Sequence record: NZ_CP079207.1
Direction: 5' to 3' (one strand)
Length of the DNA: 16,663 nt
Source of the DNA: a plasmid
Positions 1-15,329 of the stretch are shown here, piece by piece. The notes beneath the pieces are model-generated. The model did no database searches. It was not told the DNA's origin and saw only the letters and a program-made list of their open reading frames with translations. The translations under genes were made by a program, and so were the position numbers. The first letter of the stretch is position 1; every line of letters begins with the position of its first letter.

Positions 1-30
1 GTGTGTCAGTCAAGAAAGGGAGTTTTTATT

Positions 31-1143
31 ATGACAAAATCAACAAATTTCAATTACTATGAAGCCGATAACGTATATGGAGCCTTATTTTTCCAGTTTC
101 CTAAGGTATTAATGTATGGCGAGCAATATAAACATTTAAGCAGTGATGCTAAATTGGCTTATATGGTACTGAAAGACCGGCTCGAGTATTCTTTACGCAA
201 CAACTGGGTTGATGAGCAAGGGCACGTCTACTTTATTTTTACCGTTAAAGAATTACAAGATTTATTTAACTGCGCTACTGAAAAAGCCGTTAAAATCAAA
301 AAAGAATTGCAAACAGCCAATCTATTAAAACAAATTCAAATGGGATTTAATCCTAAAACTAAAAAGAATGAACCAAATCGTCTATACCTTTCTAAACTCG
401 ATGTGAAAGCTACTGATGTCTATTTAAGGGGCGAATATGGGCAAAAAAAGCCGGAATCCCTTACTACGAGCGGAATTTCGAAAATCGAAAGTCCGCATGA
501 CTTCGTTGAATCCCTTGCTACGAGCGGAATTTCGAAAATCGAAAGTCCGCATGACTTCGTTGACGACAACCCTCAAACCCTTGCTACGAGCGGAATTTCG
601 AAAATCGAAAGCAATCTATATAAAGACTATAAAAATAATATAGATACTAATAGATACGATATAGATACTCAAAAGTTGGACTTTTCCACAACTAATTTTT
701 CACCAGCTGAAATTGAAGCCCAAAATCGAGATCTAGTAAAACATGCTGATGAGTTCTTAACTGACGAAGATAATGGGTTGCCGGTCTTCTTAGAACCAGA
801 AGCAGTTCAACTACTTAGCTTTTGGTGCCGTACCCCACAACAAATGCGGCGCTTTATTGGCATTATCTTAAACGCCAAATATGCTGTTGAAAAAGAGCAT
901 AAGGATTTAGGCGTATGGATTCTATTAGACGATCCTGATTTAAAAAAAATGATGACCAAAACATTAAGACGCTATTTTAATGCTCTAAGAAGCGACGAGA
1001 AGCATATCAAGAATGTTGAGAACTACCTGTACGGCACCATGCAAAACCTATTTGGTGTTTGGTGGAACCGACAAGCAGCTAGAGAATATGCGGCCAAACA
1101 CCCCGAAGAACAGAATCTTGATGGCGAGCGCGCTTGGGACTAA
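31..1143 (+). CDS. repA: RepA_N-family plasmid replication initiator (theta type). Start chosen at ATG 31, preceded by AAGGGAG.
   Basis: The N-terminal region (FPKVLMYGEQYKHLSSDAKLAYMVLKDRLEYSLRNNWVDEQGHVYF) matches the RepA_N N-terminal domain pattern of Firmicutes plasmids. The central region holds tandem peptide repeats (SLTTSGISKIESPHDFV x3) encoded by DNA iterons. The C-terminal half is variable. Confidence 0.75.
   Translation: MTKSTNFNYYEADNVYGALFFQFPKVLMYGEQYKHLSSDAKLAYMVLKDRLEYSLRNNWVDEQGHVYFIFTVKELQDLFNCATEKAVKIKKELQTANLLKQIQMGFNPKTKKNEPNRLYLSKLDVKATDVYLRGEYGQKKPESLTTSGISKIESPHDFVESLATSGISKIESPHDFVDDNPQTLATSGISKIESNLYKDYKNNIDTNRYDIDTQKLDFSTTNFSPAEIEAQNRDLVKHADEFLTDEDNGLPVFLEPEAVQLLSFWCRTPQQMRRFIGIILNAKYAVEKEHKDLGVWILLDDPDLKKMMTKTLRRYFNALRSDEKHIKNVENYLYGTMQNLFGVWWNRQAAREYAAKHPEEQNLDGERAWD
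458..613. repeat. Three tandem direct repeats (units starting near 458, 512 and 578; 54-bp period, with 12 extra bp before the third copy) inside repA. Each unit carries an internal TTCGAAAATCGAAAG sub-repeat. Candidate iterons of an intragenic oriV.
   Basis: The repeat CCCTTGCTACGAGCGGAATTTCGAAAATCGAAAGTCCGCATGACTTCGTTGA occurs 2.5-3 times, read directly from the sequence. RepA_N plasmids place their origin inside the rep coding region. Confidence 0.7.
614..700. repeat. AT-rich tract with short ATAGATAC direct repeats, immediately 3' of the iterons. Candidate DNA-unwinding element of the origin.
   Basis: AATCTATATAAAGACTATAAAAATAATATAGATACTAATAGATACGATATAGATACTC seen in sequence. It still lies within the repA reading frame. 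Confidence 0.4.
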
Positions 1144-1292
1144 AACGCCATATAAGCCCATTTAAGCCACTTCAAGTGTTACGCATATATTTTACTAAAG
1201 CCACTTTAAAATCGCTTAGAAGTAAAAACAGATACCTTGAGTGGGCGAATTGGCGATAGCTAAACTAGAAAAATGGGATAGGCGCTTTTTAA

Positions 1293-1490
1293 ATGACCAA
1301 ACCAAGCAAAGAAGTTGAAAAAAATTGAGCAATTGTTGGCTGACCCATGGGCAGTCGATATTCAAGACATTTGGGAGCAAGCAGCCCAAAATCGAGATCC
1401 TGATAAATGCAAGCTGTTTGACGCGTTATACACTTACCTCTTAGATAAACGCCAAGAACAAATCATCAATGAAAAGCACTTTTTGATTTA
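1293..1490 (+). pseudogene. Small ORF interrupted at an A7 homopolymer (1318-1324). ATG 1293 gives MTKPSKEVEKN-stop. Removing one A yields a clean 65-aa ORF (MTKPSKEVEKIEQLLADPWAVDIQDIWEQAAQNRDPDKCKLFDALYTYLLDKRQEQIINEKHFLI) ending at 1490.
   Basis: Manual translation. The downstream frame stays open for 55 codons but has no start codon of its own. A homopolymer is the only lesion. Confidence 0.4.
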
Positions 1491-1541
1491 ACATAGACAG
1501 TTCAAATAATCAATGATTGAAATAAAAAGGAGGCACAAAAT

Positions 1542-2258
1542 ATGGCTAAGACACGAACATATATGGACAAGTATAGATTCACAACTGCGGAAAACCAACG
1601 GTTTGCCCGAGCAAATTTTACCAAGTTAGTGCATACTAATGCTCGCTTTGAAGGCGTTAATACCACATTGCCACAAACACAAACTATTATGGACGGTATG
1701 AGCGTAGCAGGAGTACCTGTTGAAGATGTTTTGACGATTGTTAATTTAAAGCGTGGGTGGCAATATATCACTACTCAAAATTCCCCTTTAACGTTAACCA
1801 TGGAAAAACAAATCAACAAAATTGTGGCAGCAGAAGACGCCTTAGTACCAGGAGAATTACGGCAAGGGAAAGGGGGAGTTAATTTAGGTAGTGAAGACTT
1901 TTTTGAGCCGCCTTTAATTAACGAAAAACAGGAACAATCCTTTTTACAAAAAATCTTAACTGATCCACGAACGACGATTACTGATAAAGCATTGACTGTC
2001 ATGTATCATAATATGCGTCAACAAATCTTTTGGGACGGAAACAAAAGGACGGCAACTTTAAGTGCCAATAAAATTATGATTGACGGTGGCGCTGGTTTAA
2101 TTAATATCCCATTAGATAAGTGGGATCAATGGAACGAACTAATTGCCAATTATTATCGGACTAATGACATGACTGAAGTTAAAAAGTGGACATATGATAA
2201 TGGTATCCAAGGATTACAAATTCGAGCAAACAAAAAATTAAGTGTTAATCACAAGTAG
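1542..2258 (+). CDS. Doc/Fic-fold protein with a Doc-type motif variant. IFWDGNKRTATLSA aligns with the P1 Doc motif HIFNDANKRTALNSA, but the catalytic His position is Gln (QQIF).
   Basis: Strong RBS AAGGAGG 9 nt upstream of ATG 1542. Motif-level match to the Doc subgroup of Fic proteins (HxFx[DN][AG]NKR). No further domain is recognisable by eye. Confidence 0.45.
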   Translation: MAKTRTYMDKYRFTTAENQRFARANFTKLVHTNARFEGVNTTLPQTQTIMDGMSVAGVPVEDVLTIVNLKRGWQYITTQNSPLTLTMEKQINKIVAAEDALVPGELRQGKGGVNLGSEDFFEPPLINEKQEQSFLQKILTDPRTTITDKALTVMYHNMRQQIFWDGNKRTATLSANKIMIDGGAGLINIPLDKWDQWNELIANYYRTNDMTEVKKWTYDNGIQGLQIRANKKLSVNHK

Positions 2259-2333
2259 TAAATTATGTATTTAATATATCTAAATATGCCTATTAATGAT
2301 ATAATTGACCGCAAAGAAAGCAGGTCTATTTTT

Positions 2334-2999
2334 ATGTCAAGAATTTATAAAGTTGGCGAAGCTGCTAAGCTTCTCGGTGTATCTCGCTCTACCATGCAAA
2401 GATGGGATCGAGAAAAAAGACTAGTTGCTCAGCGCAATGTTGCCAATCGCAGATACTATACGCAAGAGCGGCTGGATGCTTTTAGGGGCATTAAGCCTCA
2501 CCGCAAGACAGTTGCTTATGCCCGTGTTTCTTCTGTAGGTCAGAAAGAAAATCTTAGGCATCAGATGGCTTTCATCATTGAATATGCCAATGCTAGAGGC
2601 ATCATTATTGATGAACATGTAGAAGATATTGGATCAGGGCTTAATTATAACCGCAAAAAATGGAATAAATTATTGGATGAAGTAGAAGCAGGAAAAATAG
2701 AACGAATCTTTGTTACCTATAAAGATCGTTTTGCCCGCTTTGGCTTTGATTGGTTTGAACATTTTTGTGCTAAGCACGATACTAAAATTATTGTTTTAAA
2801 CAACCCTGAAACCTCTCCAGATGAGGAAATGGTTGAAGACTTAATTTCAGTAATTCATGTGTTTTCATGTCGGCTTTATGGGTTGAGACGGTACGGCAGG
2901 AAGATTAGGCGGGATTTAAAGAAGGAAGGTGAAAAGAGTGATCATCAAAACCAGAACATATCGATTAAAACCCAATCAAAGGATGAAGAAGGTTCTTGA
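2334..2999 (+). CDS. tnpA: IS607-family TnpA: a serine recombinase with an N-terminal MerR-like HTH.
   Basis: HTH YKVGEAAKLLGVSRSTMQRWDREKRL. Catalytic-Ser motif AYARVSSVGQ. About 220 aa from ATG 2334. Overlaps the start of tnpB. Confidence 0.8.
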   Translation: MSRIYKVGEAAKLLGVSRSTMQRWDREKRLVAQRNVANRRYYTQERLDAFRGIKPHRKTVAYARVSSVGQKENLRHQMAFIIEYANARGIIIDEHVEDIGSGLNYNRKKWNKLLDEVEAGKIERIFVTYKDRFARFGFDWFEHFCAKHDTKIIVLNNPETSPDEEMVEDLISVIHVFSCRLYGLRRYGRKIRRDLKKEGEKSDHQNQNISIKTQSKDEEGS

Positions 3000-4215
3000 T
3001 TCGCTTTGTGATTACAGACGCTTCAGCTGGAATCTCGGTTTAGAAACCTGGCAAAATATGCATGAAGCCAGACAATTGGCTTTAACCCAGCATCTTAAAG
3101 CAGAACTTAAAAAGCCTAGAAAAAAACAAAAGCTTACAAACGCTGAAAGAGAAATTCTCGCAAACAATCCTGTCCCTTCCTGGCGCAGAATTCGTGATGA
3201 GCTGACTGAAAACAAGCAATACTGGCAGACAAAGCTTCCAGCTCATGTCTTTAATTTGGCGATCCAAGACTTAGGCAATGCTTGGCAGAATTTTTTTGAT
3301 AAAGCGCAGCCAGGCTGGGGAAAGCCAAAATTCAAGTCTAAAAAAGCACCTAGGCAGGGATTTAAAATGGATCAGGCCAAAATTAAGGATGGCTGCTTAT
3401 TTTTAGAAAAGCCTAGGGCTGTCAAAGAAACATGGAACGGCTTTAAATTAAGCTCTGCTCCATTGTCGGATGATTTCGGAACAATCAGCTTTTACAAAGA
3501 AAAAAACAGATACTATGCATCCATTCCTTTTAAAATATCTGATCCAGAAGACAAGCCTAAGACAGGCAGATATACAGGCGTGGATATCAATGTTGGACAT
3601 TTCAATTACAGAGACGGTCAATGCATAGTAATGCCCAAATCGTTAGCAGCAGTCTATTGCAAAATCAAGCATTATCAAAGACAGCTGTCTAAAAAGCGTG
3701 TCGTCAATGGTAAAATCAAAGGAATGCAAAGCAAGCGCTACATGAAAGCGAGAAACAAGCTTCAAGCAGCTTACGCTCGTGCTAAAAATATTCAAAATGA
3801 TTTGATGCAGAAATTTACCACAAAGCTGGTTAGCGAATATGATTCTATTGTGATTGAAGACCTAAGCGTTAAAGGAATGCTTATGAGTCATGTTGCCTCC
3901 AAAGGAATGCACAGGTCAATGTTTGGCAGATTTAGACAGATATTGACTTATAAATGCGAATGGTATGGCAAGAAATTGATCGTAGCCAATAAACTGTACC
4001 CTTCAACTCAAAGGTGCGCAGCCTGCGGATTAGTGAAAAAAGGCGATGAAAAAATCACTTTAAGAGGCAATAAGAAGCATGGCACCAAGCATAATGAATT
4101 TGTTTGTTATAATCCGAACTGCCGTAACTATAATAAAAAAGTTGACCGTGACGAAAACGCCATGCTCAACTTAATAATTCTGGTAAAACATCCAGAATTA
4201 AATAAAGCCTTATAA
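2929..4215 (+). CDS. tnpB: TnpB (OrfB, IS605/IS607 accessory protein; RuvC-like RNA-guided nuclease family).
   Basis: N-terminal IKTRTYRLKPNQ. RuvC-I GVDINVGHFN, RuvC-II IVIEDLSVKGM, and RuvC-III DRDENAMLN. Zn finger CAACG...CYNPNC. The start is GTG 2929 or 2938, with GGAAGGTG as RBS. Confidence 0.85.
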   Translation: MKRVIIKTRTYRLKPNQRMKKVLDSLCDYRRFSWNLGLETWQNMHEARQLALTQHLKAELKKPRKKQKLTNAEREILANNPVPSWRRIRDELTENKQYWQTKLPAHVFNLAIQDLGNAWQNFFDKAQPGWGKPKFKSKKAPRQGFKMDQAKIKDGCLFLEKPRAVKETWNGFKLSSAPLSDDFGTISFYKEKNRYYASIPFKISDPEDKPKTGRYTGVDINVGHFNYRDGQCIVMPKSLAAVYCKIKHYQRQLSKKRVVNGKIKGMQSKRYMKARNKLQAAYARAKNIQNDLMQKFTTKLVSEYDSIVIEDLSVKGMLMSHVASKGMHRSMFGRFRQILTYKCEWYGKKLIVANKLYPSTQRCAACGLVKKGDEKITLRGNKKHGTKHNEFVCYNPNCRNYNKKVDRDENAMLNLIILVKHPELNKAL

Positions 4216-4459
4216 AAAGAATGCGGGCGAAGCTACGTCCGAAAAAGAAGTCAAAAGAGTCGGTCAATGCGATTACTCCCAAGTTGGAATATCGGAAAAC
4301 TGATGAAGACGTTGATAAGAAAAGCATAGGCATGTTAAGCCATAATGACTACAAATAAATACAATGTAGTTGTTTGCATATGTTTTTCATAGCTGCTAAT
4401 GAATTGAACCAGATGTACAAGCAACTAAAAAAACGGATAAATTAGAACTTAAATTAGTT

Positions 4460-5622
4460 CCTGAATTGTCAATTTAAGTGCAACAGTTAGGTTATGAAGA
4501 GATATATTGCTTGAAGAGTTCTTCTGCTGTGTGATATTGGAGGATTCGGCGATGTTTGTGGTTAATGGCATTAGTTGCCTGTTGAACATATGCAGCTGTC
4601 TTATCGTTCATGCTTTTGCCTTTAGGGAAGAATTGACGCAGAAGACCGTTGCAGTTTTCATTTGTGCCTCTTTCCCAAGGTGAATATGGATGAGCGAAGT
4701 AGATCTGACAGTTTTTAATTTTAGTCATATCTGCAAACTCAGAACCATTATCAAAAGTAATAGTCTTGAACCAATCTGGATGCTGGTCTATTTCTTTTTG
4801 AAGCAGTCTTTGACAAGTACTTGCTCGATAATCTGGTATTTTGATGACAATTTCAAAACGAGTAGTTCTTTCTGTCAGAGTCATCAAAGCAGGCTGATTT
4901 TTACGTCTAACGCCTTTAACCCAATCTCCTTCCCAGTGAAGAGGAGTTGCTCTGTCTTCAACTTCTTTAGGACGCTGCTCAATTGAATTGCCAAGATTCT
5001 TTTTATGCAAAGCATGCCCACCATGACTATGATGCCGTTTGTTTCTGCGTCTTTTAAGCTTCATTGGCAGATCAATATTGCTTATATCTAGCAAACCGCG
5101 ATCAATATAGCGATAAACGGTAGGCGTGCTGGGGCAAGGATAGCCTGGCATCGTCTGCTTGAACTCACCCACAAACTCATCAATGCTGGTAGCATCAAAT
5201 TTAGTTTTAAACCGCTTAGACAGCATTTTCAGAAAAACAGCATAATGCTTTAACTGATCACGCTTATAGCAGTTCTTGCGTCGCTTATCATGATAGATCT
5301 GCGCAGTATCGGCATAGTAATGCTCATAGAGCAGATAGTTATGATCTCTTTGCAGGACGCTGCCACGTCTGATTTCACGGCTAATTGTCGATTTGTGACA
5401 GCCAACTTCTCGAGCAATAGCGGAACAGGAGGTTATGCCTAAATCAAGCAGAGCTTGTATTTGTCCTCGTTGTACACTATTTAATTGATGATAATGTCTA
5501 GAGATGCTAGAATTTGAATTGGTCATGAAGATTCACCTTCCTTGATTTTTCGTCACTTCAAGTTTAGGTCTTCATGGCCTTTTTGTTTAACACTTAGCGT
5601 TGCACTTCAATTTTAAATCCGG
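4460..5622 (-). mobile_element. IS30-family insertion sequence, about 1.16 kb, with imperfect 26-bp terminal IRs.
   Basis: The left end ATTGTCAATTTAAGTGCAACAGTTAG aligns with the reverse complement of the right end ATTTAAAATTGAAGTGCAACGCTAAG. A 1035-bp transposase gene lies between them. The left boundary is confirmed by the independent copy at 11683. Confidence 0.75.
4492..5526 (-). CDS. IS30-family DDE transposase.
   Basis: 344 aa with an N-terminal HTH (VQRGQIQALLDLGITSCSAIAREVGCHKSTISREIRRG). DDE region with HWEGDWV, FDNGSEF and ERGTNEN motifs typical of IS30. Confidence 0.9.
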   Translation of the reverse strand: MTNSNSSISRHYHQLNSVQRGQIQALLDLGITSCSAIAREVGCHKSTISREIRRGSVLQRDHNYLLYEHYYADTAQIYHDKRRKNCYKRDQLKHYAVFLKMLSKRFKTKFDATSIDEFVGEFKQTMPGYPCPSTPTVYRYIDRGLLDISNIDLPMKLKRRRNKRHHSHGGHALHKKNLGNSIEQRPKEVEDRATPLHWEGDWVKGVRRKNQPALMTLTERTTRFEIVIKIPDYRASTCQRLLQKEIDQHPDWFKTITFDNGSEFADMTKIKNCQIYFAHPYSPWERGTNENCNGLLRQFFPKGKSMNDKTAAYVQQATNAINHKHRRILQYHTAEELFKQYISS

Positions 5623-5851
5623 GACTTACCATTTCTGTTAGAATTGCAACTTGTTCTTTGGTAAATCGCTGTTGTTTTCTAATATCACTTAAATCTTTTG
5701 TCCACTTAGAATTTTTTTCATTTTCTTCTGCTAACTTCATAAGATGATGAATTACTTCAGCATTATTTTTTAAATCGTGTTCCTCTTTATAATCTTGAAT
5801 CCAATCTAAATCTGTATCAGAAATTGTCGCTCTAAAAGTTGTCTTAATCAT
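5594..5851 (-). CDS. Small RHH-like protein (paralog C). Its last 11 codons are encoded by the IS30 right end, so the native C-terminus is lost.
   Basis: RBS AAGAGGA. Beta-strand/helix pattern TTFRATISDTDLDWIQDYKEEHDLKNNAEVIHHL, paralogous to 5866-6093. The tail VSPGFKIEVQR-stop derives from the IS30 IR. Confidence 0.5.
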   Translation of the reverse strand: MIKTTFRATISDTDLDWIQDYKEEHDLKNNAEVIHHLMKLAEENEKNSKWTKDLSDIRKQQRFTKEQVAILTEMVSPGFKIEVQR

Positions 5852-5865
5852 TTTTTCTGGTCCTC

Positions 5866-6093
5866 TTAATCAGCGTAAGTTTCTTGTCTTTTTTTCAAAG
5901 CATTATCAATCTTTTGATTAATTTTTTGTAACTCTTCCAGTTCTTTTTCTTTTTGAACACCTAACATGGCATTGAAGAATAAGAACTTATAAAGTTGACC
6001 ATTATTATCAAAGCAATGTTCTTTTCTAATCTGCCTAATTTCTTCCCATTGCTTATCGTTGAGTCGAAATTGCAAAAAGTGCTGTCGTCCCAT
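5866..6093 (-). CDS. Small RHH-like DNA-binding protein (paralog B).
   Basis: RBS AAGAGGG. HFLQFRLNDKQWEEIRQIRKEHCFDNNGQLYKFL aligns with paralog C (F.R.-.[NS]D...[WL]..I....[KE]EH...NN..[LV]...L). Confidence 0.5.
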   Translation of the reverse strand: MGRQHFLQFRLNDKQWEEIRQIRKEHCFDNNGQLYKFLFFNAMLGVQKEKELEELQKINQKIDNALKKRQETYAD

Positions 6094-6113
6094 TTCTTGC
6101 CCTCTTTCTAAAT

Positions 6114-6446
6114 TTAATCATCTTCTTTTGCCGTGTCTTCTGACAAACTATCTAACAAATTTAATGCTCGTTCGGTGTCATTAACATCTCCACTAATGAA
6201 ATACTTTGCAAGAACATTCAGCCCTAATAAATTTTCCTGCAGAAGTTTATTCTGCTTCTGAATCAATAAACTAGTTTGCGAATCTTCATTTTGATTTTGA
6301 AAATTAATTGGAATTTGTTCAATTTGTTCTCTCAAAAATTGATTTCTGGAAATTTTCTTACTTGAATTTTGATTTAATTGATTAACAATCCGATCAATTC
6401 TAGCCAAGTTTTGTTCGCTGATTCCACGGATTAAAACTTTTACCAT
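6114..6446 (-). CDS. Small RHH-like protein (paralog A, more divergent, with a Q/N-rich middle).
   Basis: RBS AGAGGAAAG. N-terminal KVLIRGISEQNLARIDRIVNQL has a beta-strand plus helix pattern. First gene of a three-gene minus-strand operon. Confidence 0.4.
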   Translation of the reverse strand: MVKVLIRGISEQNLARIDRIVNQLNQNSSKKISRNQFLREQIEQIPINFQNQNEDSQTSLLIQKQNKLLQENLLGLNVLAKYFISGDVNDTERALNLLDSLSEDTAKEDD

Positions 6447-6459
6447 AATTTTTCTTTCC

Positions 6460-6500
6460 TCTGATTTCTAGTTTCTAGTTTTCCTTCTAGTTTCTACTCT
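6460..6500. promoter_or_regulatory. Three to four direct repeats of TCTAGTT(T) in the leader/promoter of the RHH operon. Candidate operator.
   Basis: GATTTCTAGTTTCTAGTTTTCCTTCTAGTTTCTAC lies immediately upstream (on the minus strand) of the RBS of 6114-6446. Confidence 0.35.
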
Positions 6501-6621
6501 GAAATTTGACTAAAATCTGCTTCTTTTAGTTATCTCTAGTAAAGAGCATAAGGGAAATCTGACCCCACGCCTTTTATCAAGGTGTGCTGGGCTTGGTTGT
6601 ACCAAGCGATTTCGCATTTTT

Positions 6622-6770
6622 AGAAGTGATATCACTTCTGATTAATTTGACGTCTATATACTTCTAAATTGTTCGTCTTTTACCTGACATTACGTCTTGA
6701 TACGTAATGTTTTTTTGTAATATCCGAACAGGACGTATTCTTACGTAGCTCATTACGTCCAAGACGTAAC
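6622..6770. promoter_or_regulatory. Cluster of palindromes and ACGT-core half-sites. Candidate operator, oriT or sso.
   Basis: Perfect 18-bp palindrome AGAAGTGATATCACTTCT (6622-6639). GACGTC. Perfect IR CATTACGTcttgatACGTAATG (6688-6709). A second unit CATTACGTCcaagACGTAAC (6752-6770), plus GACGTATTCTTACGTAGC. Confidence 0.35.
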
Positions 6771-6792
6771 ATTTTTTGCTCTATTTTTGAGT

Positions 6793-7662
6793 CTAGTTAT
6801 CAAAATTTCTATTTTTTAACTCTAAAATTTCTTCAACATTTTCAACCAAAATTCCTAAAGTCGACGCAATTTCTCTTGTGCTTTTGCCAATTTCCCGATA
6901 TTTTTTAACTCGAAAAATTAACTCTTGAGAATATTCTACAGGTTCCTTATCACGCTCTATCTCTTTAACTTCAACATTTCTAGCATGATACCTCTGCATC
7001 ATTTTTTGCAAAGTTCCTTCAAGAATATCAAACTGATTTACAAATTCTTTCGCTAAAATTTTAGAAACCCTATTTGACTTTTTAGCTTCATAAATCATTT
7101 TTCTATATCTCTGCTTAGAAGCCCGAGAAGCTTTACTATAGAATTCAGGATTATGAACCAACGCATAAATCATCATTTGCCTATTTAAATTTTCCTCATG
7201 GTCCCAATCTGGCAAATAAAAGTTTTCCAGCATTTCTCTAACTTCCTGAACATAATTTTCAATTTTTGAACCACGCAACTGCATTTCTAATCGCCAAAGT
7301 GAATCAACATTTACAATTCGTCCATGCCTTTGTTCTTGTTCAATTTTTTTATTATACAAACGAATTTGTCTCTCACTTGAACGCGCGCCGAAATATACCG
7401 TTTGCAATTCCCCATTCTTACCATAGAAAAACTTTTTAGTCATTCCCCAGCGCCATACCTGATAATACTGAATCTCAGAATCATTATAAATATCAAAAGC
7501 TACATCACAACGTGAATAATGCTTATTTTGAATTTTTGCAATAATTTCTCTAAGTAGCCATTGACCAGCTGGAGTATTCATCGAATGATTGGGATTAAAG
7601 TCAATTCTAATCTTATCTTTTTGAAACCTAGGAACTTCAAAATATGCAACTTGCCCAGGCGA
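6793..7662 (-). pseudogene. pT181-family (Rep_trans) rolling-circle replication initiator, missing its N-terminus.
   Basis: Block-by-block match to pT181 RepC: RIDFNPN vs [14 protein letters not shown] vs [36 protein letters not shown] vs [39 protein letters not shown] vs LWRVEIELKR. The frame is open upstream only to a TAA at 7663-7665. The first ATG (7581) lies after the RIDFNPN block, so about 100 N-terminal residues are absent. Confidence 0.7.
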
Positions 7663-7667
7663 TTACA

Positions 7668-7725
7668 GACATTACCGGCAGAATTATTCATTTAGACAGC
7701 TGCCAGGCATACCGGCATGACATGC
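7668..7725. other. Candidate double-strand-origin nick hairpin of the RCR replicon. GC-rich imperfect IR ACCGGCAG / CTGCCAGG flanks a loop containing TCTAAAT (minus strand), reminiscent of the pT181 IR-II CTCTAATAG nick loop.
   Basis: GC-rich patch in an AT-rich region, located where pT181-family plasmids carry their origin (within the 5' part of rep). Also a CATTACCGGCA / CATACCGGCA direct repeat. Confidence 0.3.
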
Positions 7726-7810
7726 GGCTGCTGCGTGATTAGCTGATATATTATAATTTTTCCAATTATTGTAAATATCAATTTTATCTTGTTTGGATAA
7801 TTTAGACATA

Positions 7811-7850
7811 AATAAAAACCCCGAAATTCTTGTCCGAATTTCGGGGTTCA
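7811..7850 (-). terminator. Rho-independent terminator of the nrd operon. Stem CCCCGAAATTC / GAATTTCGGGG with the T-run on the minus strand.
   Basis: Perfect 11-bp stem, 6-nt loop. The minus-strand RNA ends in UUUUUAUUU. Lies 40 nt downstream of the nrdE stop. Confidence 0.8.
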
Positions 7851-7887
7851 TATCAATAAACACTTTAGCTGCTTTTCTATTATTAAA

Positions 7888-10056
7888 CTAAATCATACAT
7901 TTCTGGCATTCTGCACCATTTTGAATTAAACATTCGTCTGCAGTCAAGTTCTCACTACCAGCTAAAACTTTTTCTCTTATTCTAACATAATAAATTGAGT
8001 TGCAGCGCTTTTTAAAGGCATAAATATAAGCCTTATTTAAATCTCTTGTTGTTGCATTATCTTCAACAAATAAAGTTAACGAAATTGATTGATCAACATA
8101 CTTTTGTGCAGCAGCTGTAATATCAATAATAGCATTAGGTCCTACTTCATATGCACCCTTTTCGTAATACTCATAATTGTCTTTATTAATCTTATAAGCT
8201 GGTACATAAATTCGACCCAAATCAGCCTCTTTGCGTGTTTCAACAGGAGCTACTACTGGCTGCAAACTTGGTGTACATGAAGATAAATAACTAATTGATC
8301 CAGTAGGTGCAACTGCTAACAAGTTAGCATTAGCTATACCTGTCTTTTTAATTTTAGTAATCAATTCTTCCCAATCTTCTTTAGTTGGAATAACTAATTT
8401 ATATTTAGCTACAATTTCTTTAATCTTGTCTGTTTTCGGTGAGACTTCCTCATCAATAAATTTTTTGAAATAATCACCACTAGCATATGATGAATCTTTG
8501 AATCCTTTAAAAGCACCATACTTTTCAGCTAATTTATTTGATTCTTTAAATGCATGGTATGCAATTGTATAAAAGAAAATTCCTGTAAATTCAACTGCTT
8601 CTGGTGAATCATAATAAATATGATTAGTTGCTAAAAAGCCATGTAAATTCATTGCTCCTAGACCGATTGCTCGATTAGCTTTATTTCCCTTTTCAATTGA
8701 AGGAGCACAATCTAAATCTGAAGACCTGGCAACACGATTAAGCGCTTGAACACTATCAGAAACCAAACCACCTAACTTGTCAGCGCTATTCATTGCTGCT
8801 GCAATATTAAGTGATCCTAAATTACAACAAACATCGTAGCCCGTCTTATTAAAACTTAAGTCTTCATTATAGGTACTTGGCGTATTAACCTGAGCAATTT
8901 CTGAACATAAATTAGACATCACGATCCGCCCCAATTTCTTTTGTGGGTTTCTTCGATTGACAGTATCTTCATACATAATATAGGGATACCCTGATTCAAA
9001 TTGAACTTCAGCAATAGTTTGGAAGAATTTTCTAGCACTGATAAATGTCTTTTTAATACATGGATTATTAAGGAGATTTTGGTATTCTTTAGTAATTGAA
9101 ATATCTGACATTGGTTTACCATATTCACGTTTAATATCATATGGTGAAAACAAAGCCATCTTTTTATTTTCTTTGGCTAGTTCAAAAGTAATATCTGGAA
9201 TCACTACGCCAAGTGATAAAGATTTAATTCTTACCTTTTCGTCAGCGTTTTCTCGTTTAGTATCTAAAAATTGCAGAATCTGGGGATGATGGGCACTTAA
9301 ATAAACTGCACCGGCACCTTGTCTTTGCCCTAATTGATTGGCATAAGAAAATGAATCTTCTAGTAATTTCATTACAGGAATTATCCCACTAGATAAATTC
9401 TTCATTTTTTTAATAGGTGCACCTAATTCACGCAAATTAGTTAAGCATAGAGCAACACCACCACCACGTTTAGATAATTGCAGACTTGTGCTTATTGCTC
9501 GTGAAATTGATTCCATATTGTCTTCAACTCTGAGCAAATAACATGAAACATATTCACCGCGTCTCTTTTTACCTGCATTCAAGAAAGTCGGAGTTGCTGG
9601 CTGGAAACGATTACTAATAATATCTTTAACTAAATTCAAGGCCAGTTCTTCATTGCCATCAGCTAAAAATAAAGCATTCATAACAGCCCGATCTTCAAAA
9701 CGTTCTAAAAATTGTTTATTATCGTTTGTTTTTAAGGCATATGCTTTATAGAATTTAGCTGCACCCATAAAGTTCAAAAAGCTAAAATTTTGCGCATAAG
9801 CTAATTTGAAAATTTCTTTAATAAATTTAGCTGTATATAAATCTAGAACTTTTTTATCATAGTAATTATTATCAACTAAATAAGCTAATTTTTCTTCTAA
9901 AGAAGCAAACTTTTTCATTCTTGGTTCAATATGATTTTCAAGATATTGCTTAGTAGCTTCCTTGTCAGCTTTAAAATTATAATTTCCTTTTTCATCTTTA
10001 AATTTAGCAAGTGCATTTAAAGAAATATATGAATCATTATTAAGATGATCAGTCAT
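7888..10056 (-). CDS. nrdE: Class Ib ribonucleotide reductase alpha subunit NrdE.
   Basis: About 720 aa with the catalytic NLCSEI motif. Start taken at MTDHL (ATG 10056, RBS GGTGAGGA), which overlaps the nrdI stop in ATGACTGA. Confidence 0.9.
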
Positions 10057-10474
10057 TGTCCTCACCTGCATCAGCAATTATTTTATTAACATTATTTACA
10101 TCTTCAGTTGTTCCCAGTAACTCAAATTTATATAGATAAGGAACATGTAATTTCTTAGAAATTACATCCCCTGCCAAGGCAAAAGAATTACCAAAATTGG
10201 TATTTCCACTAGCAATAACACCAATACATTTTTGCCGATTAGCCAATTTGTTCAAAAAGTGGATAACTTGCTCAGGCACAGCACCTGTAGTCCCATGGCC
10301 ACCAGAATAAGTTGGCGTAATTAAAATATATTCTTCAGAAACTGAAATTTCTTTACTGAGTTTAATAGGAATCCTAATAGAATTACAATCTAACTTTTCT
10401 ACAAAGCGTGCTGTATTATTTGAAGTGGAAGAATAATAGACAACTAATGGCTTTTTAGAAATCCCAGTCATCAT
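10049..10474 (-). CDS. nrdI: NrdI flavodoxin-like protein of class Ib RNR.
   Basis: About 140 aa. N-terminal [20 protein letters not shown] has the NrdI signature. Lies between nrdF and nrdE with overlapping stop and start codons. Confidence 0.85.
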
Positions 10475-11462
10475 CTTTAGTCTCCTCTCCTGTTCCCATT
10501 ACATATGAAGAACCATTACCAGAAAAGAAATCATGGTTTTCATCAGCTTGAGCTGATAATTGAGCGAATACTTCTGGGGAAATATAAGTTTCTTCTGCGG
10601 TAAAAGGAGTATCATAGCCTAAATTTTGTAAAAATTTACCTGCATTATACAAACTGAAATGAATTGCATCATCAACCAAATCAAAATCATCATAAAGCTC
10701 GTGCAAATATTTCTTTTCCAAATCAATTAGTTTATCTAAGAAATCAAAAACGAATTTTTTCATTTCTGCTTGTTTAGCTGGAGCTAATTTCTTTACGGCC
10801 AATTGATATTTGTAACCACTATAATAATTGTGAATAACCTTATCTCTTAAGATCAATCTAATAATATCAGCAGTATTAGGCAATTTACCTCTTGCAGCTA
10901 AATAAAATGGTAAATAAAAACCACCATAAAGCAGGAACCCTGGCATAATTGCTGCGGCAACCTTTGATTTAAGCGGATCATTGCCTGTATAATACGGAAT
11001 TACCGCTTTAGCTCTTGCTTGTAAAGCATCATTATTAACTACCCATTCATGCGCTTCTTCAATTTGTTCACTAGTACATAAAGTAGAAAAAATAGTTCCA
11101 TATGATCTTGCATGGACAGCAACCATAAAAGCAAAATTTGCATAGATAGCTTGCTCTATATCAGTTTGTGAATTTTTAATTTGGGCTACATCACCCACAC
11201 TTGATTGAGTTGTATCTAATAAAGTCAATCCAGTGAAAGTGCGAGTTATAAGCTGTTGCCAGTCATCAGATAATTGATTCCAAGAACTTATATCATTCGA
11301 AACTGGGATTTTTTCAGGTAACCAAAAGTTTTGAGTAACTCTGTTCCAAACCTCAAGATCCTTATCATCTTTAATGTCATTCCAGTTAATAGCTCGCATA
11401 TTTTTGCCGTTGTTATTGTAAGCAAATTCAACTGGTGACTGTGAATGATCATAATAACTCAT
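10455..11462 (-). CDS. nrdF: Class Ib ribonucleotide reductase beta subunit NrdF.
   Basis: [42 protein letters not shown] plus the ferritin-like diiron E/H motifs (EEAHEW). Start chosen at the second ATG (11462), preceded by AGGAG. Confidence 0.9.
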
Positions 11463-11542
11463 ATTTGTATTTGCTCCTATCATTATTTATTGTTTTATCT
11501 AATATTTGTGTGAACATAATATAGCATCTTCTGCTCAATAAT

Positions 11543-11586
11543 ACAACATGTGGATTTTTGGCTATTTATAATCAATATATTGTGGC
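11543..11586. promoter_or_regulatory. Two NrdR-box-like palindromes about 30 bp apart, overlapping the predicted nrdF promoter. On the minus strand: -35 TTGTAT, 17-bp spacer, -10 TATATT.
   Basis: TCAATATATTGTGG (11572-11585) matches the NrdR core CwAtATaTwG exactly. ACAACATGTGG (11543-11553) is a weaker second box. Tandem boxes at roughly 31-bp spacing are the usual NrdR arrangement. Confidence 0.45.
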
Positions 11587-11682
11587 TAAGCCGTTTTGAT
11601 AATACAAAATTATTTTCAAATTTATTTTATCTTCCAAAAATAATGTAGGTGTTGTTTTTTGCTTTTTTGACAAAAAAATCTC

Positions 11683-11752
11683 CCTGAATTGTCAAATTAA
11701 GTGCAACAGTTAGGCTATGAAGAGATATACTGCTTGAAGAGTTCTTCTGCTG
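11683..11752. mobile_element. 70-bp solo fragment of the IS30-family element: the left IR plus the last 13 codons of the transposase.
   Basis: Near-identical to 4460-4529 (three mismatches visible). Similarity stops abruptly at 11752. Confidence 0.8.
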
Positions 11753-12129
11753 ATAGCGCTGAAATTTCAAATAGAATTAATACCGATAACGATCAGGATC
11801 AGGATCAGCAAGGTGATAATGCGGAAACAAATTTTGAATATTCCGATGATCGTGATGGAGATGACCAATAAATAATTAAAAAAAGGAGTAGACAAAATAG
11901 CATTAAGTCAGAAATTAGCTTTGAATAATGATTTTCAAAACAAAAAAGCCCTGCTATTATGCAGAGCCACCGCGCGTTCGCAAGTTATCGTCTTGCTGCG
12001 CATGCATCCATGATCATTGGACGCGACAATTTTCCTACATGTATTATAACATGCTAAAATAAAAATGCATGTCATTCATGCACATTCTAGGGTTGGCTCA
12101 ATCAACCACCCTATAGGAGGTGAGAGACG

Positions 12130-12219
12130 TTGGACGACATGACAATTTTCCTAATTTGCGTTCTGCTACATGAGCTCCATTTAGTTCTTCGGGAACTAAA
12201 TAATCTACTTGATAAGTAG
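12130..12219 (+). CDS. Short hydrophobic peptide P1, 29 aa from TTG 12130 (MDDMTIFLICVLLHELHLVLRELNNLLDK) or 26 aa from ATG 12139.
   Basis: RBS GGAGG 9 nt upstream. Paralogous at both protein and DNA level to the peptide at 12686-12778. A degenerate copy of the 5' end lies at about 12024-12056. Confidence 0.45.
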   Translation: MDDMTIFLICVLLHELHLVLRELNNLLDK

Positions 12220-12224
12220 TCATC

Positions 12225-12470
12225 ATTAGTAGACGCGACCAGAGTCATCGGCAGTTGTATAGTCGGTGACTTTTTTATTTTGCATTCTTTAATTCTCTAA
12301 AGCGTCGATAAATTGGTGTTTTGGAGATCCCTAATTTCTTGCTGATTTCAGAATAGCTCCTGTATGCAACCTCCAGGCAAAATCAATTTGTTCTGGAGTG
12401 TACTTTCGAAGCATACCATCATGGAGGTTGGTATTATTAGCTTTCGCTCATGCCTTGTTTTCCCAAGATG
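12225..12470 (-). pseudogene. Decayed 3' remnant of a serine resolvase gene, homologous to 12775-13380, with a frameshift and upstream loss.
   Basis: DNA-level homology to 12790-13010. It translates to ..NLHDGMLRKYTPEQIDFAWRLHTGAILKSARN-stop, where the intact gene reads FHDGMPRKYTSEQIDFAWKLHTQDHMSYSEISRKLG. An in-frame stop lies upstream. Confidence 0.7.
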
Positions 12471-12685
12471 AAAAAGTGCGACAGATCAACGCTTTTTTAT
12501 TTTTTTGGTCAAATTTTAGAAATATGCTAAATAAAAAAAGCGGTCAAACGACCGCCCACGTTTTGCATGCCTCGTTCATGTCGACAGCATAACACTAATC
12601 CTTTAATCATTATAACATGATAAAATAGTTATGGCATGCTTTTGTGCCCCTACACTGCTGTAAAAGGCTAGAAAGGAGCTGTATC

Positions 12686-12778
12686 ATGTCAGATGTTGTA
12701 ACACTAATCCTAACAATCGCACTTTTGAATGAATTACATTTAGTCCTTCACGAACTAAACCAGCTATTAAAGCACTAG
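12686..12778 (+). CDS. Short hydrophobic peptide P2, 30 aa (MSDVVTLILTIALLNELHLVLHELNQLLKH).
   Basis: RBS GAAAGGAG 7 nt upstream of the ATG. The stop codon TAG overlaps the convergent resolvase stop within CTAG. Paralog of P1. Confidence 0.45.
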   Translation: MSDVVTLILTIALLNELHLVLHELNQLLKH

Positions 12779-13380
12779 TGCAAAAAGTCGTCCTTCGGGG
12801 CGGCTTTTTTGTCTCTTAACTCTCTAAAACGCCGGTAGATAGTTGCTTTTGACATACCTAATTTCCGACTGATTTCAGAATAGCTCATGTGGTCTTGAGT
12901 ATGGAGCTTCCACGCAAAATCAATTTGTTCTGAGGTGTACTTTCGAGGCATACCATCATGGAAGTTAGGATTATTGGCTTTTGCCCATGCCTTGCCTTCC
13001 TGGGTTCGGTTCACGATAAGATCACGTTCAAATTCTGCAAATGCACTGAATACAGTGAAGATTAGACGGCCACTTGGTGAATTATCAATCGTACCAATAT
13101 TTAAGACGCGTAGAATGATTCCCTCAGCATTTAATTGTTTAACAATGTTCAATGCGTCCTGAGTATTACGTGCTAGTCGATCTAATTTGGTGACAATTAG
13201 GGTATCACCACTACCAATTTGAGCCATCAATTTATCGAATTCTGGTCGATTTGCTGTGGTGCCTGTGTATTTATCCTTAAAGATTTTGGTCGCTCCTGCC
13301 TGTTTTAGGTCTTCAACTTGAGTTGCATAGTCCTGCTGAGTAGTTGAAACACGAGCATAGCCATAAATGGTATTTGTCAT
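12775..13380 (-). CDS. Serine recombinase of the resolvase/invertase family.
   Basis: YGYARVSTTQQD catalytic-Ser motif. About 200 aa. C-terminal HTH (SYSEISRKLGMSKATIYRRF). Confidence 0.9.
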   Translation of the reverse strand: MTNTIYGYARVSTTQQDYATQVEDLKQAGATKIFKDKYTGTTANRPEFDKLMAQIGSGDTLIVTKLDRLARNTQDALNIVKQLNAEGIILRVLNIGTIDNSPSGRLIFTVFSAFAEFERDLIVNRTQEGKAWAKANNPNFHDGMPRKYTSEQIDFAWKLHTQDHMSYSEISRKLGMSKATIYRRFRELRDKKAAPKDDFLH

Positions 13381-13486
13381 ATATTTCCTTTCAATTATGA
13401 ATACAAGTTATGAATATGGCTTATGCCCTATCTTAGAAGATTCTACTTTTGTATTCAAGACTTTCAACTTTTGATTACAAAACAAA

Positions 13487-13527
13487 AAGCAGTTTCTAAA
13501 AAGAAACTGCTTAAGTATTATTATTTT
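13487..13527. terminator. Bidirectional rho-independent terminator. Stem AAGCAGTTTCT / AGAAACTGCTT; the T-run is stronger on the minus strand.
   Basis: Perfect 10-11-bp stem with an AAAAA loop. The minus-strand RNA is followed by UUUUUGUUUUG. Confidence 0.65.
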
Positions 13528-13729
13528 CAATAATTACCATTTAATGTTAGAAATAGAAGATCAAAAGTAGAGAATGAAAATGTAAAAGTAGGAGTAGAGA
13601 ATAAAAATGAGAAAAAAGGGCTGGCTCTTTCTAACAGCCAGTCAGAGTACTCAAATCTGAGACAAAATGTAAAAATTAGCATAGATCGATTAACAATTGT
13701 TGGAGATTTTTCGACAGAGCTTTTTAAAA

Positions 13730-14819: not shown

Positions 14820-15025
14820 CTATTCCTACCCCCGCTTATCTTGAGTTTCGTCGCTTAAAGCATAGCACTAGGGAGGCTTAGATGCCTTTTTTTGTTATCA
14901 AAAAGGGCCTAGTACTTTTGGAATGGAAATACTTTCCAACACCAAAAATTCTAGACCCCTAAATTTGCGATCTACCACGTATGTTTAAATCAAATTTATT
15001 TTAAATATACCTTGTACAGTGAAGT

Positions 15026-15087: not shown

Positions 15088-15107
15088 TACATAAGTTAAG
15101 CTCAATC

Positions 15108-15323: not shown

Positions 15324-15329
15324 GATAAA

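What the first reader, a model, noticed from the sequence alone, without database searches (positions are those of the whole stretch)
1293..2258. Homopolymer-broken small ORF upstream of a Doc-like protein lacking the catalytic histidine: a possibly decayed toxin-antitoxin-like pair
The 238-aa protein carries IFWDGNKRTATLSA. This aligns with the Doc toxin motif HIFNDANKRTALNSA, a Fic-fold kinase that phosphorylates EF-Tu. The invariant His is Gln here, which in Doc abolishes activity. Directly upstream, where an antitoxin would sit, a 65-aa ORF is interrupted after 11 codons by an A7 run. Deleting one A restores the full frame. An inactive toxin would relax selection on its antitoxin. Alternatively the A7 tract is a phase-variable or slippery switch, or a sequencing error.
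Basis: partly seen in the sequence, partly recalled or inferred. Interest (0 to 1): 0.55.

Follow-up and report, generated by a model that had tools for sequence, protein, structure and literature searches.

The report
Orphaned small gene beside Gln-type Fic
A small plasmid gene broken by one extra A sits next to a healthy Fic/Doc-type gene that naturally has Gln in place of the catalytic His; the small gene is probably the leftover partner of a zeta-toxin gene that the Fic gene replaced, so this is not a decaying Doc toxin-antitoxin pair.

Summary
An A7 run (1318-1324) stops a 65-codon ORF after 11 codons, and removing one A restores the family-standard protein. The 238-aa neighbour carries QIFWDGNKRTA.

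Gln at the His position is not decay. It is present in about 95% of a large Fic subfamily, noted in 2015 as "Doc clade D2". The gene is under purifying selection whether or not the small ORF is intact.

The small ORF is a real gene (dN/dS 0.15). Its superfamily occurs in at least 702 Lactobacillaceae plasmids. In sister plasmids with the same backbone, the same 65-aa ORF is translationally coupled to a zeta-toxin gene. Sequence homology shows that the Fic gene replaced the body of that zeta ORF.

So the small ORF here is most likely an orphaned zeta partner (putative antitoxin). It has been knocked out independently in about one third of Fic-type plasmids.

A7 is not a sequencing error: the exact remnant occurs on more than 170 contigs. 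In L. crispatus the tract region carries five alleles on one backbone, some of which restore the frame. The functions of both proteins remain untested.

The parts
1..1143 (+). repA, a RepA_N-type theta replication initiator with internal 54-bp repeats at 454-563. It is the upstream neighbour and defines the plasmid backbone.
   Evidence: Pfam RepA_N and Bac_RepA_C. Tandem repeats. PLSDB typing is rep_cluster_707.
1280..1284 (+). Weakened Shine-Dalgarno of the small ORF. It reads AGGCG here, where relatives have AGGAG.
   Evidence: Alignment of 40 upstream regions. Sequence.
1293..1328 (+). The 11-codon remnant of the small ORF (MTKPSKEVEKN, then TGA).
1318..1324 (+). The A7 run. One A more than the ancestral A6, giving a +1 frameshift.
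1315..1491 (+). Downstream frame of the small ORF. It is a 58-codon open frame from TTG 1315 that holds the conserved core IEQLLADPW...IINEKHF.
   Evidence: RefSeq annotates it as a 58-aa hypothetical protein.
1489..1495 (+). TAA-C-ATA. This is the small ORF stop plus the vestigial start codon of the replaced zeta-toxin ORF (TAACATG in relatives). It marks the left junction of the swap.
1526..1533 (+). The Fic-like gene's own Shine-Dalgarno, AAAGGAGG, 8 nt before its ATG. A promoter-like match at 1483-1510 precedes it.
   Evidence: One search gives the promoter-like site, which is a consensus match only.
1542..2258 (+). Gln-type Fic/Doc-family protein of 238 aa (Doc clade D2 motif). It is intact.
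1644..1655 (+). RFEG (residues 35-38). This is an N-terminal Glu-Gly that aligns with the inhibitory-helix IEGN of FICD.
2022..2054 (+). Active-site-loop motif QIFWDGNKRTA (residues 161-171). Gln161 sits at the position of the catalytic His.
2250..4309 (+). IS607-family element: serine-recombinase tnpA, tnpB, and a Transposase-1 RNA at 4251-4309. Its insertion replaces the last ~10 codons and the zeta-derived tail of the Fic-like ORF.

Best explanation
The window is a complete 16.7-kb RepA_N (rep_cluster_707) plasmid of the kind found in Lactobacillus crispatus. Just downstream of repA, this plasmid backbone has a slot. In sister plasmids the slot holds a two-gene cassette: a 65-aa acidic three-helix protein whose stop is joined to the start of a zeta-toxin (P-loop kinase) gene as TAA-C-ATG.

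In the lineage of the window, the body of the zeta ORF was replaced by a gene with its own ribosome-binding site. The replacement runs from just after the zeta ATG to about 29 codons before its stop. The incoming gene encodes a Gln-type Fic-fold protein with the motif QxFxDGNKRT ('Doc clade D2').

The small gene was left behind without its cognate partner. I infer that it is the zeta antitoxin. It is now an orphan. Selection on it is relaxed or conditional, for example through protection against zeta cassettes on co-resident plasmids. It is therefore lost again and again.

In this window it was switched off by slippage of an A6 tract to A7, and its Shine-Dalgarno is also weakened. At most an N-terminally truncated 51-58-aa product could arise, by reinitiation at TTG 1315, 1333 or 1336.

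The Fic-like gene is intact, is expressed independently, and is kept by purifying selection. It is not a dead toxin. Lacking the general-base His, it most probably acts by binding a nucleotide or target, or by non-canonical chemistry, rather than by His-dependent transfer.

Shown here: the frameshift, the family-wide Gln, the selection patterns and the zeta-to-Fic replacement. Inferred: the antitoxin role of the small protein, the reason for its loss, and the biochemical mode of the Fic-like protein.
For: Frameshift and ancestral state.

The small ORF is a real gene.
- 285 clusters, nearly all of 65 aa.
- A conserved core.
- dN/dS 0.15.

A7 is real and common.

The small ORF was disrupted independently in about 13 of 38 species-representative Fic-type loci. 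The lesions are four CAA-to-TAA changes, two TGG-to-stop changes, three different frameshifts, deletions and start-codon losses.

The Fic-like gene is conserved regardless.
- All 46 family-invariant residues are kept in every lineage with a disrupted small ORF except L051.
- pN/pS is 0.12 in disrupted lineages and 0.13 in intact ones.

Gln is conserved across the family.
- 32 of 32 near relatives.
- 254 of 261 residues at that column in all aligned hits, and 135 of 142 among the distant representatives alone.
- 1810 representative clusters match the profile.
- The clade was noted in the literature as Doc clade D2.

Fold: the AF2 model has pLDDT 91. The best structural matches are FICD, BT_2513, SoFic and CdFic.

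Small ORF paired with zeta in the same slot:
- L105, L106, L107, L108, L110.
- A paralogue at 45% identity sits in a RelB/DinJ-X-zeta cassette with a 4-nt overlap.

Replacement junctions: homology between the Fic type (L096) and the zeta type (L106) stops right after TAACATG. It resumes about 29 codons before the zeta stop. The 273-aa Fic variants end in the zeta tail ...QKQLKDF..NPEIKPKNDPENKNDRPSY.

The Fic gene occurs without the small ORF, behind RepA_N, behind Rep_3/DUF536, and in chromosomes.
Against: - Intact small ORFs in Fic-type plasmids are still under purifying selection (dN/dS 0.15).
- In L. crispatus at least three different nearby 1-nt deletions restore the frame on an otherwise identical backbone. 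This suggests the protein is still useful there and may interact with the Fic-like protein.
- An acidic small protein (pI 4.8) next to a basic Fic protein (pI 9.3) is also a toxin-antitoxin-like pairing.
- The antitoxin role towards zeta rests on gene context only. The small protein has no detectable similarity to epsilon or PezA, or to any PDB or Pfam entry.
- About 311 plasmids carry a stand-alone relative with its own terminator next to a pUCL287-type origin. That could point to a replication-related role instead.
- In the few zeta-type plasmids examined, the zeta gene is often damaged as well.
Confidence: 0.65

Rival explanations
1. The tract is a contingency (phase-variable) switch. The poly(A) run and the bases beside it toggle expression of a still-useful small protein on and off in the L. 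crispatus plasmid population. The window simply shows the OFF phase. This reading is compatible with the orphan-partner model.
For: - On a backbone with no more than 2 other differences in 3.8 kb there are five tract alleles: A7TT (off), A8T (off, in 5 NCBI assemblies), A7T (on, 18 contigs including a 16,662-bp contig), A6TT (on), and deletion of A1312 (on).
- Other A7, A8 and T7 runs in the same contigs do not vary.
- A second A6 tract in the ORF slipped to A7 in L033, L034 and L052.
- L015 keeps A7 but reads through it from an upstream GTG.
Against: - The contigs were picked because their small protein differs, so there is ascertainment bias.
- Some A6 contigs carry other indels and may be homopolymer errors.
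- A7 is short for efficient slippage.
- Several restoring changes lie outside the homopolymer.
- Elsewhere the gene is killed by nonsense mutations and deletions, which are not reversible.
- No RNA structure follows the site (z = -0.03).
- No within-culture data are available.
Confidence: 0.15
2. The small protein and the Gln-type Fic form a genuine two-gene toxin-antitoxin or regulator-effector module. The small protein is a promiscuous neutraliser that serves both zeta and Fic partners.
For: - Gene order, gene sizes, an acidic and a basic partner, and a plasmid location in the slot used by toxin-antitoxin cassettes.
- The pair stays together in about 36 of 38 RepA_N Fic-type loci.
- Purifying selection on intact small ORFs.
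- Frame-restoring alleles.
- Distant Gln-Fic relatives are fused to Xre-HTH, ToxN or PD-(D/E)XK domains, a toxin-antitoxin or defence flavour.
Against: - The small gene is dead in about one third of lineages while the Fic gene stays intact and constrained.
- The Fic gene occurs without the small gene (L036, L037, L040, L044 and chromosomal copies).
- The Fic gene has its own SD and a 50-nt spacer, unlike the coupled zeta.
- The adjacency is explained by replacement of zeta.
- The small protein lacks the (S/T)xxxE(G/N) inhibitory motif of class I Fic antitoxins, and the Fic protein carries its own E-G.
Confidence: 0.12
3. A Doc toxin was inactivated by His-to-Gln, which relaxed selection on its Phd-like antitoxin, and both genes are decaying.
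For: - The motif resembles the Doc motif HIFNDANKRTA.
- The TIGR01550 Doc profile gives a weak match (E = 5e-4).
- The PHROG 'Doc-like toxin' family gives a weak match.
- The small ORF is broken.
Against: - Gln is the conserved state of an old, large family, not a recent lesion.
- There is no relaxation of selection on the Fic gene.
- The protein is about 230 aa with an N-terminal region aligned to FICD, unlike the 126-aa Doc. The Doc profile score is below its cut-off (20.1 against 38.65).
- The small ORF is the partner of zeta genes, not a Phd relative.
Confidence: 0.05
4. Sequencing or assembly error: the true sequence is A6 and the ORF is intact.
For: - Homopolymers are error-prone.
- A6 versions exist on the same backbone.
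Against: - The exact A7-derived 58-aa product lies on 109 contigs, with variants on about 70 more, from four independent sources.
- These include the complete record NZ_CP046312 of L. crispatus strain FDAARGOS_743.
- A7 is shared with L. gastricus plasmids, which carry a further nonsense mutation.
- Derived alleles retain A7 (A7T, and deletion of A1312).
Confidence: 0.02

Closest known systems
Doc clade D2 of Khater and Mohanty 2015 (PMC4454073): Fic/Doc proteins with the motif Qx[F/Y]x[D/E][G/V]NKR
   Same: The window protein has exactly this motif (QIFWDGNKR), is single-domain and bacterial. Gln at the His position is conserved, as that paper noted for 45 sequences.
   Different: The clade is known only from an in-silico survey, and no function or structure is published in the library I searched. 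Here the family is far larger (1810 representative clusters). It has a ~225-aa fold closest to class II Fic proteins, with an N-terminal E-G helix, rather than the minimal Doc fold.
Phage P1 Doc/Phd type II toxin-antitoxin system
   Same: Both have a Fic-fold core, Lys replacing the second Gly of the Fic motif (NKR), no final Arg, and a small ORF directly upstream.
   Different: Doc is 126 aa, has the essential His66 and has no N-terminal inhibitory-type helix. The TIGR01550 score is below its cut-off. Doc is absent from the top 50 structural matches. The small ORF is unrelated to Phd and is not required for retention of the Fic gene.
Class II Fic AMP-transferases (FICD/HYPE, SoFic, CdFic, BT_2513)
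   Same: The fold matches over about 210-230 residues (TM 0.6-0.74). An N-terminal helix carries Glu-Gly aligned to the inhibitory TVAIEGN.
   Different: In the motif, His is Gln, the second Gly is Lys, and the final Arg is Thr. Canonical His-dependent AMPylation or deAMPylation is therefore not expected.
Epsilon/zeta and PezAT toxin-antitoxin systems
   Same: In sister plasmids the same small three-helix acidic protein is translationally coupled to a Zeta_toxin-family P-loop kinase in a plasmid stability slot. One subfamily has an extra upstream RelB/DinJ-type gene, recalling omega-epsilon-zeta.
   Different: The small protein shows no detectable sequence or fold similarity to epsilon or PezA. 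The zeta genes here are short (226-229 aa). In the window the zeta gene is gone, replaced by the Fic gene.
FicT/FicA and VbhT/VbhA (class I Fic toxin with a small upstream antitoxin)
   Same: A small upstream ORF of about 60 aa followed by a Fic-fold protein.
   Different: The antitoxin-borne (S/T)xxxE(G/N) motif is absent from the small ORF. The Fic protein has its own E-G helix and lacks the catalytic His.
OrfB of Pediococcus pentosaceus plasmid pMD136 (UniRef Q9RH49)
   Same: It is a homologue at 79% identity (P0014). It was named only as an ORF.
   Different: No function is assigned to it. RepB of pUCL287-type plasmids is a different protein, a DUF536 family member.

Membership tests
Fic/Fido superfamily | Fic fold (helical core with a beta-hairpin flap) | tested here: met
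   The AF2 model has pLDDT 91. Foldseek matches FICD, BT_2513, SoFic and CdFic at probability 1.0 and TM up to 0.74. The Pfam PF02661 score is 25.8 against a cut-off of 24. A PDB profile search hits FICD at E = 4e-9.
Fic/Fido superfamily | Canonical catalytic motif HxFx(D/E)GNGRxxR | tested here: not met
   The window protein has QIFWDGNKRTAT. His is Gln, the second Gly is Lys, and the last Arg is Thr.
Doc toxins (TIGR01550, phage P1 type) | Profile score above the curated cut-off | tested here: not met
   20.1 bits against a cut-off of 38.65.
Doc toxins (TIGR01550, phage P1 type) | Catalytic His of HxFx(D/N)(A/G)NKR | tested here: not met
   Gln161 occupies this position. It is invariant in 32 near relatives and in 135 of 142 distant representatives.
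Doc toxins (TIGR01550, phage P1 type) | Lys in place of the second Gly, and no terminal Arg in the motif | tested here: met
   The motif reads NKRTAT. Lys is present in 131 of 141 representatives.
Doc clade D2 (Gln motif; PMC4454073) | Consensus Qx[F/Y]x[D/E][G/V]NKR in a single-domain bacterial protein | tested here: met
   The window protein has QIFWDGNKR in a single domain of 238 aa. The published definition was read.
Type II toxin-antitoxin pair (small ORF with the Fic-like protein) | The two genes depend on each other: the toxin is not kept without its antitoxin | tested here: not met
   The small ORF is disrupted in about 13 of 38 loci while the Fic gene stays intact and constrained. The Fic gene is also found without the small ORF.
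Type II toxin-antitoxin pair (small ORF with the Fic-like protein) | Toxicity of the larger protein and its neutralisation by the smaller one | not testable with these tools
   This needs expression and co-expression assays.
Class I Fic antitoxin (VbhA/FicA type) | The (S/T)xxxE(G/N) inhibitory motif in the small protein | tested here: not met
   No Glu in the small protein is followed by Gly or Asn, in the consensus of 25 members.
Zeta-toxin antitoxin (functional analogue of epsilon/PezA) | A small gene directly upstream of, and translationally coupled to, a Zeta_toxin-family gene | tested here: met
   This is met in sister plasmids, not in the window. The junction is TAA-C-ATG in L105-L110, and the paralogue overlaps zeta by 4 nt in L002 and L090. 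The window keeps only the vestige TAACATA.
Zeta-toxin antitoxin (functional analogue of epsilon/PezA) | Homology or fold similarity to epsilon or PezA, or demonstrated neutralisation | tested here: not met
   There is no Pfam, PDB-sequence or Foldseek match. Neutralisation cannot be tested here.
Phase-variable contingency locus | Length polymorphism of a simple repeat that toggles the reading frame within one lineage | tested here: inconclusive
   Five alleles occur on one backbone. However, the sampling was biased towards variants, some A6 calls may be errors, and no within-culture data exist.

The most novel reading that the evidence does not exclude
The 65-aa protein founds an undescribed antitoxin family for short zeta toxins. 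It also survives as a widespread orphan 'anti-addiction' gene on Lactobacillaceae plasmids. In L. crispatus it is toggled by a poly(A) contingency tract. The Gln-type Fic (Doc clade D2) that took over the toxin slot is itself an active effector. It would work by His-independent chemistry or by stoichiometric binding, and be controlled by the same small protein.
Probability: 0.12. Interest if true: 0.7.

Novelty: new variant of a known kind. Interest (0 to 1): 0.4.

Why it matters
For annotation:
- The small ORF in this common L. crispatus plasmid should be read as a frameshifted, polymorphic copy of a conserved gene.
- The 'Fic family protein' next to it should not be called a Doc toxin or a pseudogene.

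For biology, three uncharacterised things become testable:
- A very common small protein of Lactobacillaceae plasmids, present in at least 702 PLSDB records. Its gene context points to a zeta-toxin partner.
- A clean natural example of toxin-gene replacement that leaves an orphaned partner.
- A large, conserved Fic subfamily with Gln instead of the catalytic His. Its persistence under purifying selection asks what a His-less Fic fold does.

None of this is shown experimentally. The window itself contains an ordinary loss-of-function frameshift.

Tried and rejected
- pUCL287 'RepB' as the identity of the Fic-like protein was rejected. RepB is a DUF536 protein.
- Pfam, NCBIfam, PHROGs and PADLOC gave no family for the small protein.
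- The structure model of the small protein (three helices, pLDDT 74) gave no meaningful PDB match. A PDB profile search also found nothing.
- PADLOC has no match for the Fic-like protein. PHROGs gives only an unknown-function family, phrog_11900.
- A conserved neighbour of the chromosomal Fic homologues was sought and not found.
- Programmed frameshifting: no stimulatory RNA structure follows the tract.
- Rfam finds nothing in the region.
- Promoter and terminator scans were not above the shuffled expectation.
- Literature searches for this module on Lactobacillus RepA_N plasmids, and for the RelB-X-zeta cassette, found nothing specific.
- The test 'small ORF intact wherever zeta is intact' was inconclusive. 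Of four plasmids whose zeta matched in one piece, only L107 has a fully intact zeta, and there the small ORF starts with ATA. L108 and L110 carry a stop near the zeta C-terminus, and in L109 both genes are broken.
Full report
**Observation.**
The window reads ATG ACC AAA CCA AGC AAA GAA GTT GAA AAA AAT TGA from 1293. That is 11 codons and then a stop, with an A7 run at 1318-1324. Removing one A gives a 65-aa ORF ending at 1491. The 238-aa ORF at 1542-2258 carries QIFWDGNKRTATLSA.

**What the window is.**
- It is 99.9% identical over the region to an L. crispatus plasmid, NZ_CP046312.
- A 16,662-bp L. crispatus contig wraps across its ends, so the window is a complete circular plasmid.
- It encodes a RepA_N initiator with internal repeats, the small ORF, the Fic-like gene and an IS607-family element.
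- It also encodes an IS30 element, a class Ib ribonucleotide reductase operon, a resolvase, ISL3 fragments and ParA.

**The small ORF is a real gene.**
- It has 285 homologous clusters, nearly all of 65 aa.
- About 55 C-terminal residues form a strongly conserved core. The first ten residues are variable.
- Among 22 intact copies, dN/dS is 0.15.
- Relatives carry A6 or GAAACAATT at the tract, so A7 is a +1 slippage.
- The Shine-Dalgarno is also weakened here, AGGCG where relatives have AGGAG.
- A7 is not an error. The exact 58-aa remnant lies on 109 contigs, and close variants lie on about 70 more, from four sources. Two L. gastricus plasmids share A7 and add a nonsense codon.

**The Fic-like protein is not a decayed Doc.**
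- Gln161 is invariant in 32 relatives down to 55% identity.
- A profile search of 1.8 billion representatives finds 1810 clusters.
- Among the 142 distant representatives:

| Motif residue | Conserved in |
|---|---|
| Gln | 135/142 |
| Phe | 133 |
| Asp | 127 |
| Gly | 133 |
| Asn | 141/141 |
| Lys | 131 |
| Arg | 134 |
| N-terminal Glu | 126/138, mostly followed by Gly or Asn |

- Over all aligned hits, 254 of 261 residues at that column are Gln.
- Khater and Mohanty (PMC4454073) already listed this motif as 'clade D2 of the Doc subfamily', with 45 sequences and unknown function.
- The AlphaFold model (pLDDT 91) matches class II Fic proteins best: FICD, BT_2513, SoFic and CdFic. Doc is not among the top 50.
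- A PDB profile search aligns residues 12-189 to FICD, with RFEG opposite the inhibitory IEGN.
- The Doc profile TIGR01550 scores below its cut-off.

**The two genes are not interdependent.**
I aligned the region upstream of the Fic gene in 40 species-representative loci. The small ORF is independently destroyed in about 13 of them. The lesions include:
- A7 at this tract;
- A7 at a second tract;
- a +1 insertion;
- CAA-to-TAA at codons 13 and 24, and twice at codon 56;
- TGG-to-stop at codons 19 and 27;
- a recurrent 42-nt deletion;
- lost start codons;
- a 5' replacement.

In all these lineages except one, the Fic gene keeps all 46 family-invariant residues. Its pN/pS is the same as in lineages with an intact small ORF, 0.12 against 0.13.

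The Fic gene also occurs in other settings:
- behind RepA_N without the small ORF (L036, L037);
- behind Rep_3 plus DUF536 genes (L040, L044);
- alone in chromosomes, with no conserved neighbour.

**Where the small ORF belongs.**
Its superfamily is present in at least 702 PLSDB plasmids. It appears in four contexts.
- With the Gln-Fic, as in the window.
- As a 61-aa paralogue (45% identity, E = 2e-15) between a RelB/DinJ gene and a zeta-toxin gene that it overlaps by 4 nt. About 100 plasmids carry this form.
- As the same 65-aa subfamily joined to a zeta-toxin gene by TAA-C-ATG. About 113 plasmids have this arrangement. Among sampled rows with zeta at 80% identity or more, only about a third matched in one full-length piece, and of the four of those examined only L107 has a fully intact zeta.
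- Alone, with its own terminator, next to pUCL287-type origins. About 311 plasmids carry this form.

The zeta cassettes and the Fic cassette occupy the same slot of the same backbone. The order is repA, then the slot, then two minus-strand ORFs, then mobQ.

**The swap.**
I compared a Fic-type plasmid (L096) with a zeta-type plasmid (L106).
- Homology is 88% through the small ORF and ends exactly after TAACATG, the zeta start codon.
- It resumes at 84% about 29 codons before the zeta stop.
- The 273-aa Fic variants therefore end in the zeta tail ...QKQLKDF..NPEIKPKNDPENKNDRPSY.

So the Fic gene, with its own AAAGGAGG ribosome-binding site, replaced the body of the zeta ORF. In the window the vestigial ATG has become ATA (1493-1495). 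The tail has been removed by the IS607 insertion at about 2250.

**Interpretation.**
The small ORF is best read as the orphaned upstream partner of a replaced zeta toxin. I infer from context that it is the zeta antitoxin. This explains why it is lost so often in Fic-type plasmids.

The continued purifying selection on intact copies needs a further explanation. Protection against zeta cassettes on co-resident plasmids, gene conversion from such cassettes, or a second role are all possible. None was tested.

**Tract polymorphism.**
Five alleles occur on an L. crispatus backbone that differs at no more than 2 other positions in 3.8 kb.

| Allele | Reading frame | Where found |
|---|---|---|
| A7TT | off | window, L001 |
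| A8T | off | five NCBI assemblies |
| A7T | on, Ile11Asn | 18 contigs |
| A6TT | on | 10 contigs |
| deletion of A1312 | on | L089 |

Other A7, A8 and T7 runs in these contigs are invariant. This is suggestive of switching or of selection for restoration. However, the contigs were chosen through their variant proteins, and some A6 contigs have other indels. No frameshift-stimulating RNA structure follows the tract.

**What stays unknown.**
- The biochemical activity of the Gln-Fic is unknown. Distant members are fused to Xre-HTH, ToxN or PD-(D/E)XK domains. A phage family of unknown function matches it. PADLOC has no match.
- The function of the small protein is unknown. It has no Pfam, PDB or fold match.

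**Verdict.**
The window holds an ordinary, real frameshift in a conserved small plasmid gene. That gene sits next to an intact member of the known but uncharacterised Gln-type Doc/Fic clade. The pairing is a by-product of a zeta-to-Fic gene replacement rather than a decaying Doc toxin-antitoxin module.

Noticed in passing
window 1-16663: The window is a complete circular plasmid. A 16,662-bp L. crispatus contig (GCA_040428575.1) aligns across the window ends. In the parts compared (window 1-4491 and 14956-16663), its only indel is a single T missing at 1325.
   Followed up: partly
window 454-563 and 616-669: There are 54-bp tandem repeats inside repA, encoding the repeated peptide ...TSGISKIESPHDFV..., and 11-bp repeats just after them. 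They look like the in-gene iterons or origin typical of RepA_N (pLS32-type) replicons. An otherwise identical plasmid (L086) has a RepA of 348 aa instead of 370.
   Followed up: no
window ~2250-4309: An IS607-family element (serine-recombinase tnpA 2265-2999 and tnpB 2929-4215) is inserted at the 3' end of the Fic-like ORF and replaces its tail. Rfam 'Transposase-1 RNA' (RF03014, 61 bits) lies at 4251-4309, just after tnpB.
   Followed up: partly
window 7888-11483 (- strand): A class Ib ribonucleotide reductase operon (nrdF, nrdI, nrdE) is carried on this 16.7-kb plasmid. It is flanked by an IS30 element, a Rep_trans fragment (6793-7581), a resolvase and ISL3 fragments.
   Followed up: no
L097 2393-2640 (L. 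plantarum 16 plasmid Lp16A) and ~311 other PLSDB plasmids: A stand-alone relative of the small ORF has its own stem-loop and T-run terminator. It lies a few hundred bases upstream of the pUCL287-type iterons, repA (Rep_3) and the DUF536 gene, with no toxin-like gene beside it.
   Followed up: partly
L002 3465-4655; L090 1841-3031: A three-gene cassette of a RelB/DinJ-family gene, a 61-aa paralogue of the small ORF, and a zeta toxin. All three L. gastricus loci that carry both this cassette and the Fic cassette have a dead small ORF upstream of the Fic gene.
   Followed up: partly
L022 and L042, small ORF: The same 42-nt in-frame deletion, between GATAAAC repeats, occurs in two distant plasmids (Companilactobacillus and Bombilactobacillus). 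The CAA-to-TAA change at codon 56 also arose twice (L002/L005 and L010).
   Followed up: no
L003-L039, repA against small ORF and Fic: RepA identity to the window ranges from 59% to 100%. In some loci only its C-terminal third matches. The small ORF and the Fic gene stay at about 85-98%. This indicates mosaic replicons, or much faster evolution of repA.
   Followed up: no
P0364, P0319, P0293, P0302 (distant Gln-Fic relatives): Gln-type Fic domains are fused to a ToxN endoribonuclease domain (P0364, which has two Fic domains), a PD-(D/E)XK nuclease domain (P0319), or Xre-type HTH domains (P0293, P0302).
   Followed up: no
L105, L106, L108-L110, zeta ORF: The zeta-toxin genes coupled to the 65-aa ORF are often damaged themselves, by frameshifts or a shared CAA-to-TAA about 33 codons before the stop. 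The small ORF upstream is usually still intact.
   Followed up: partly
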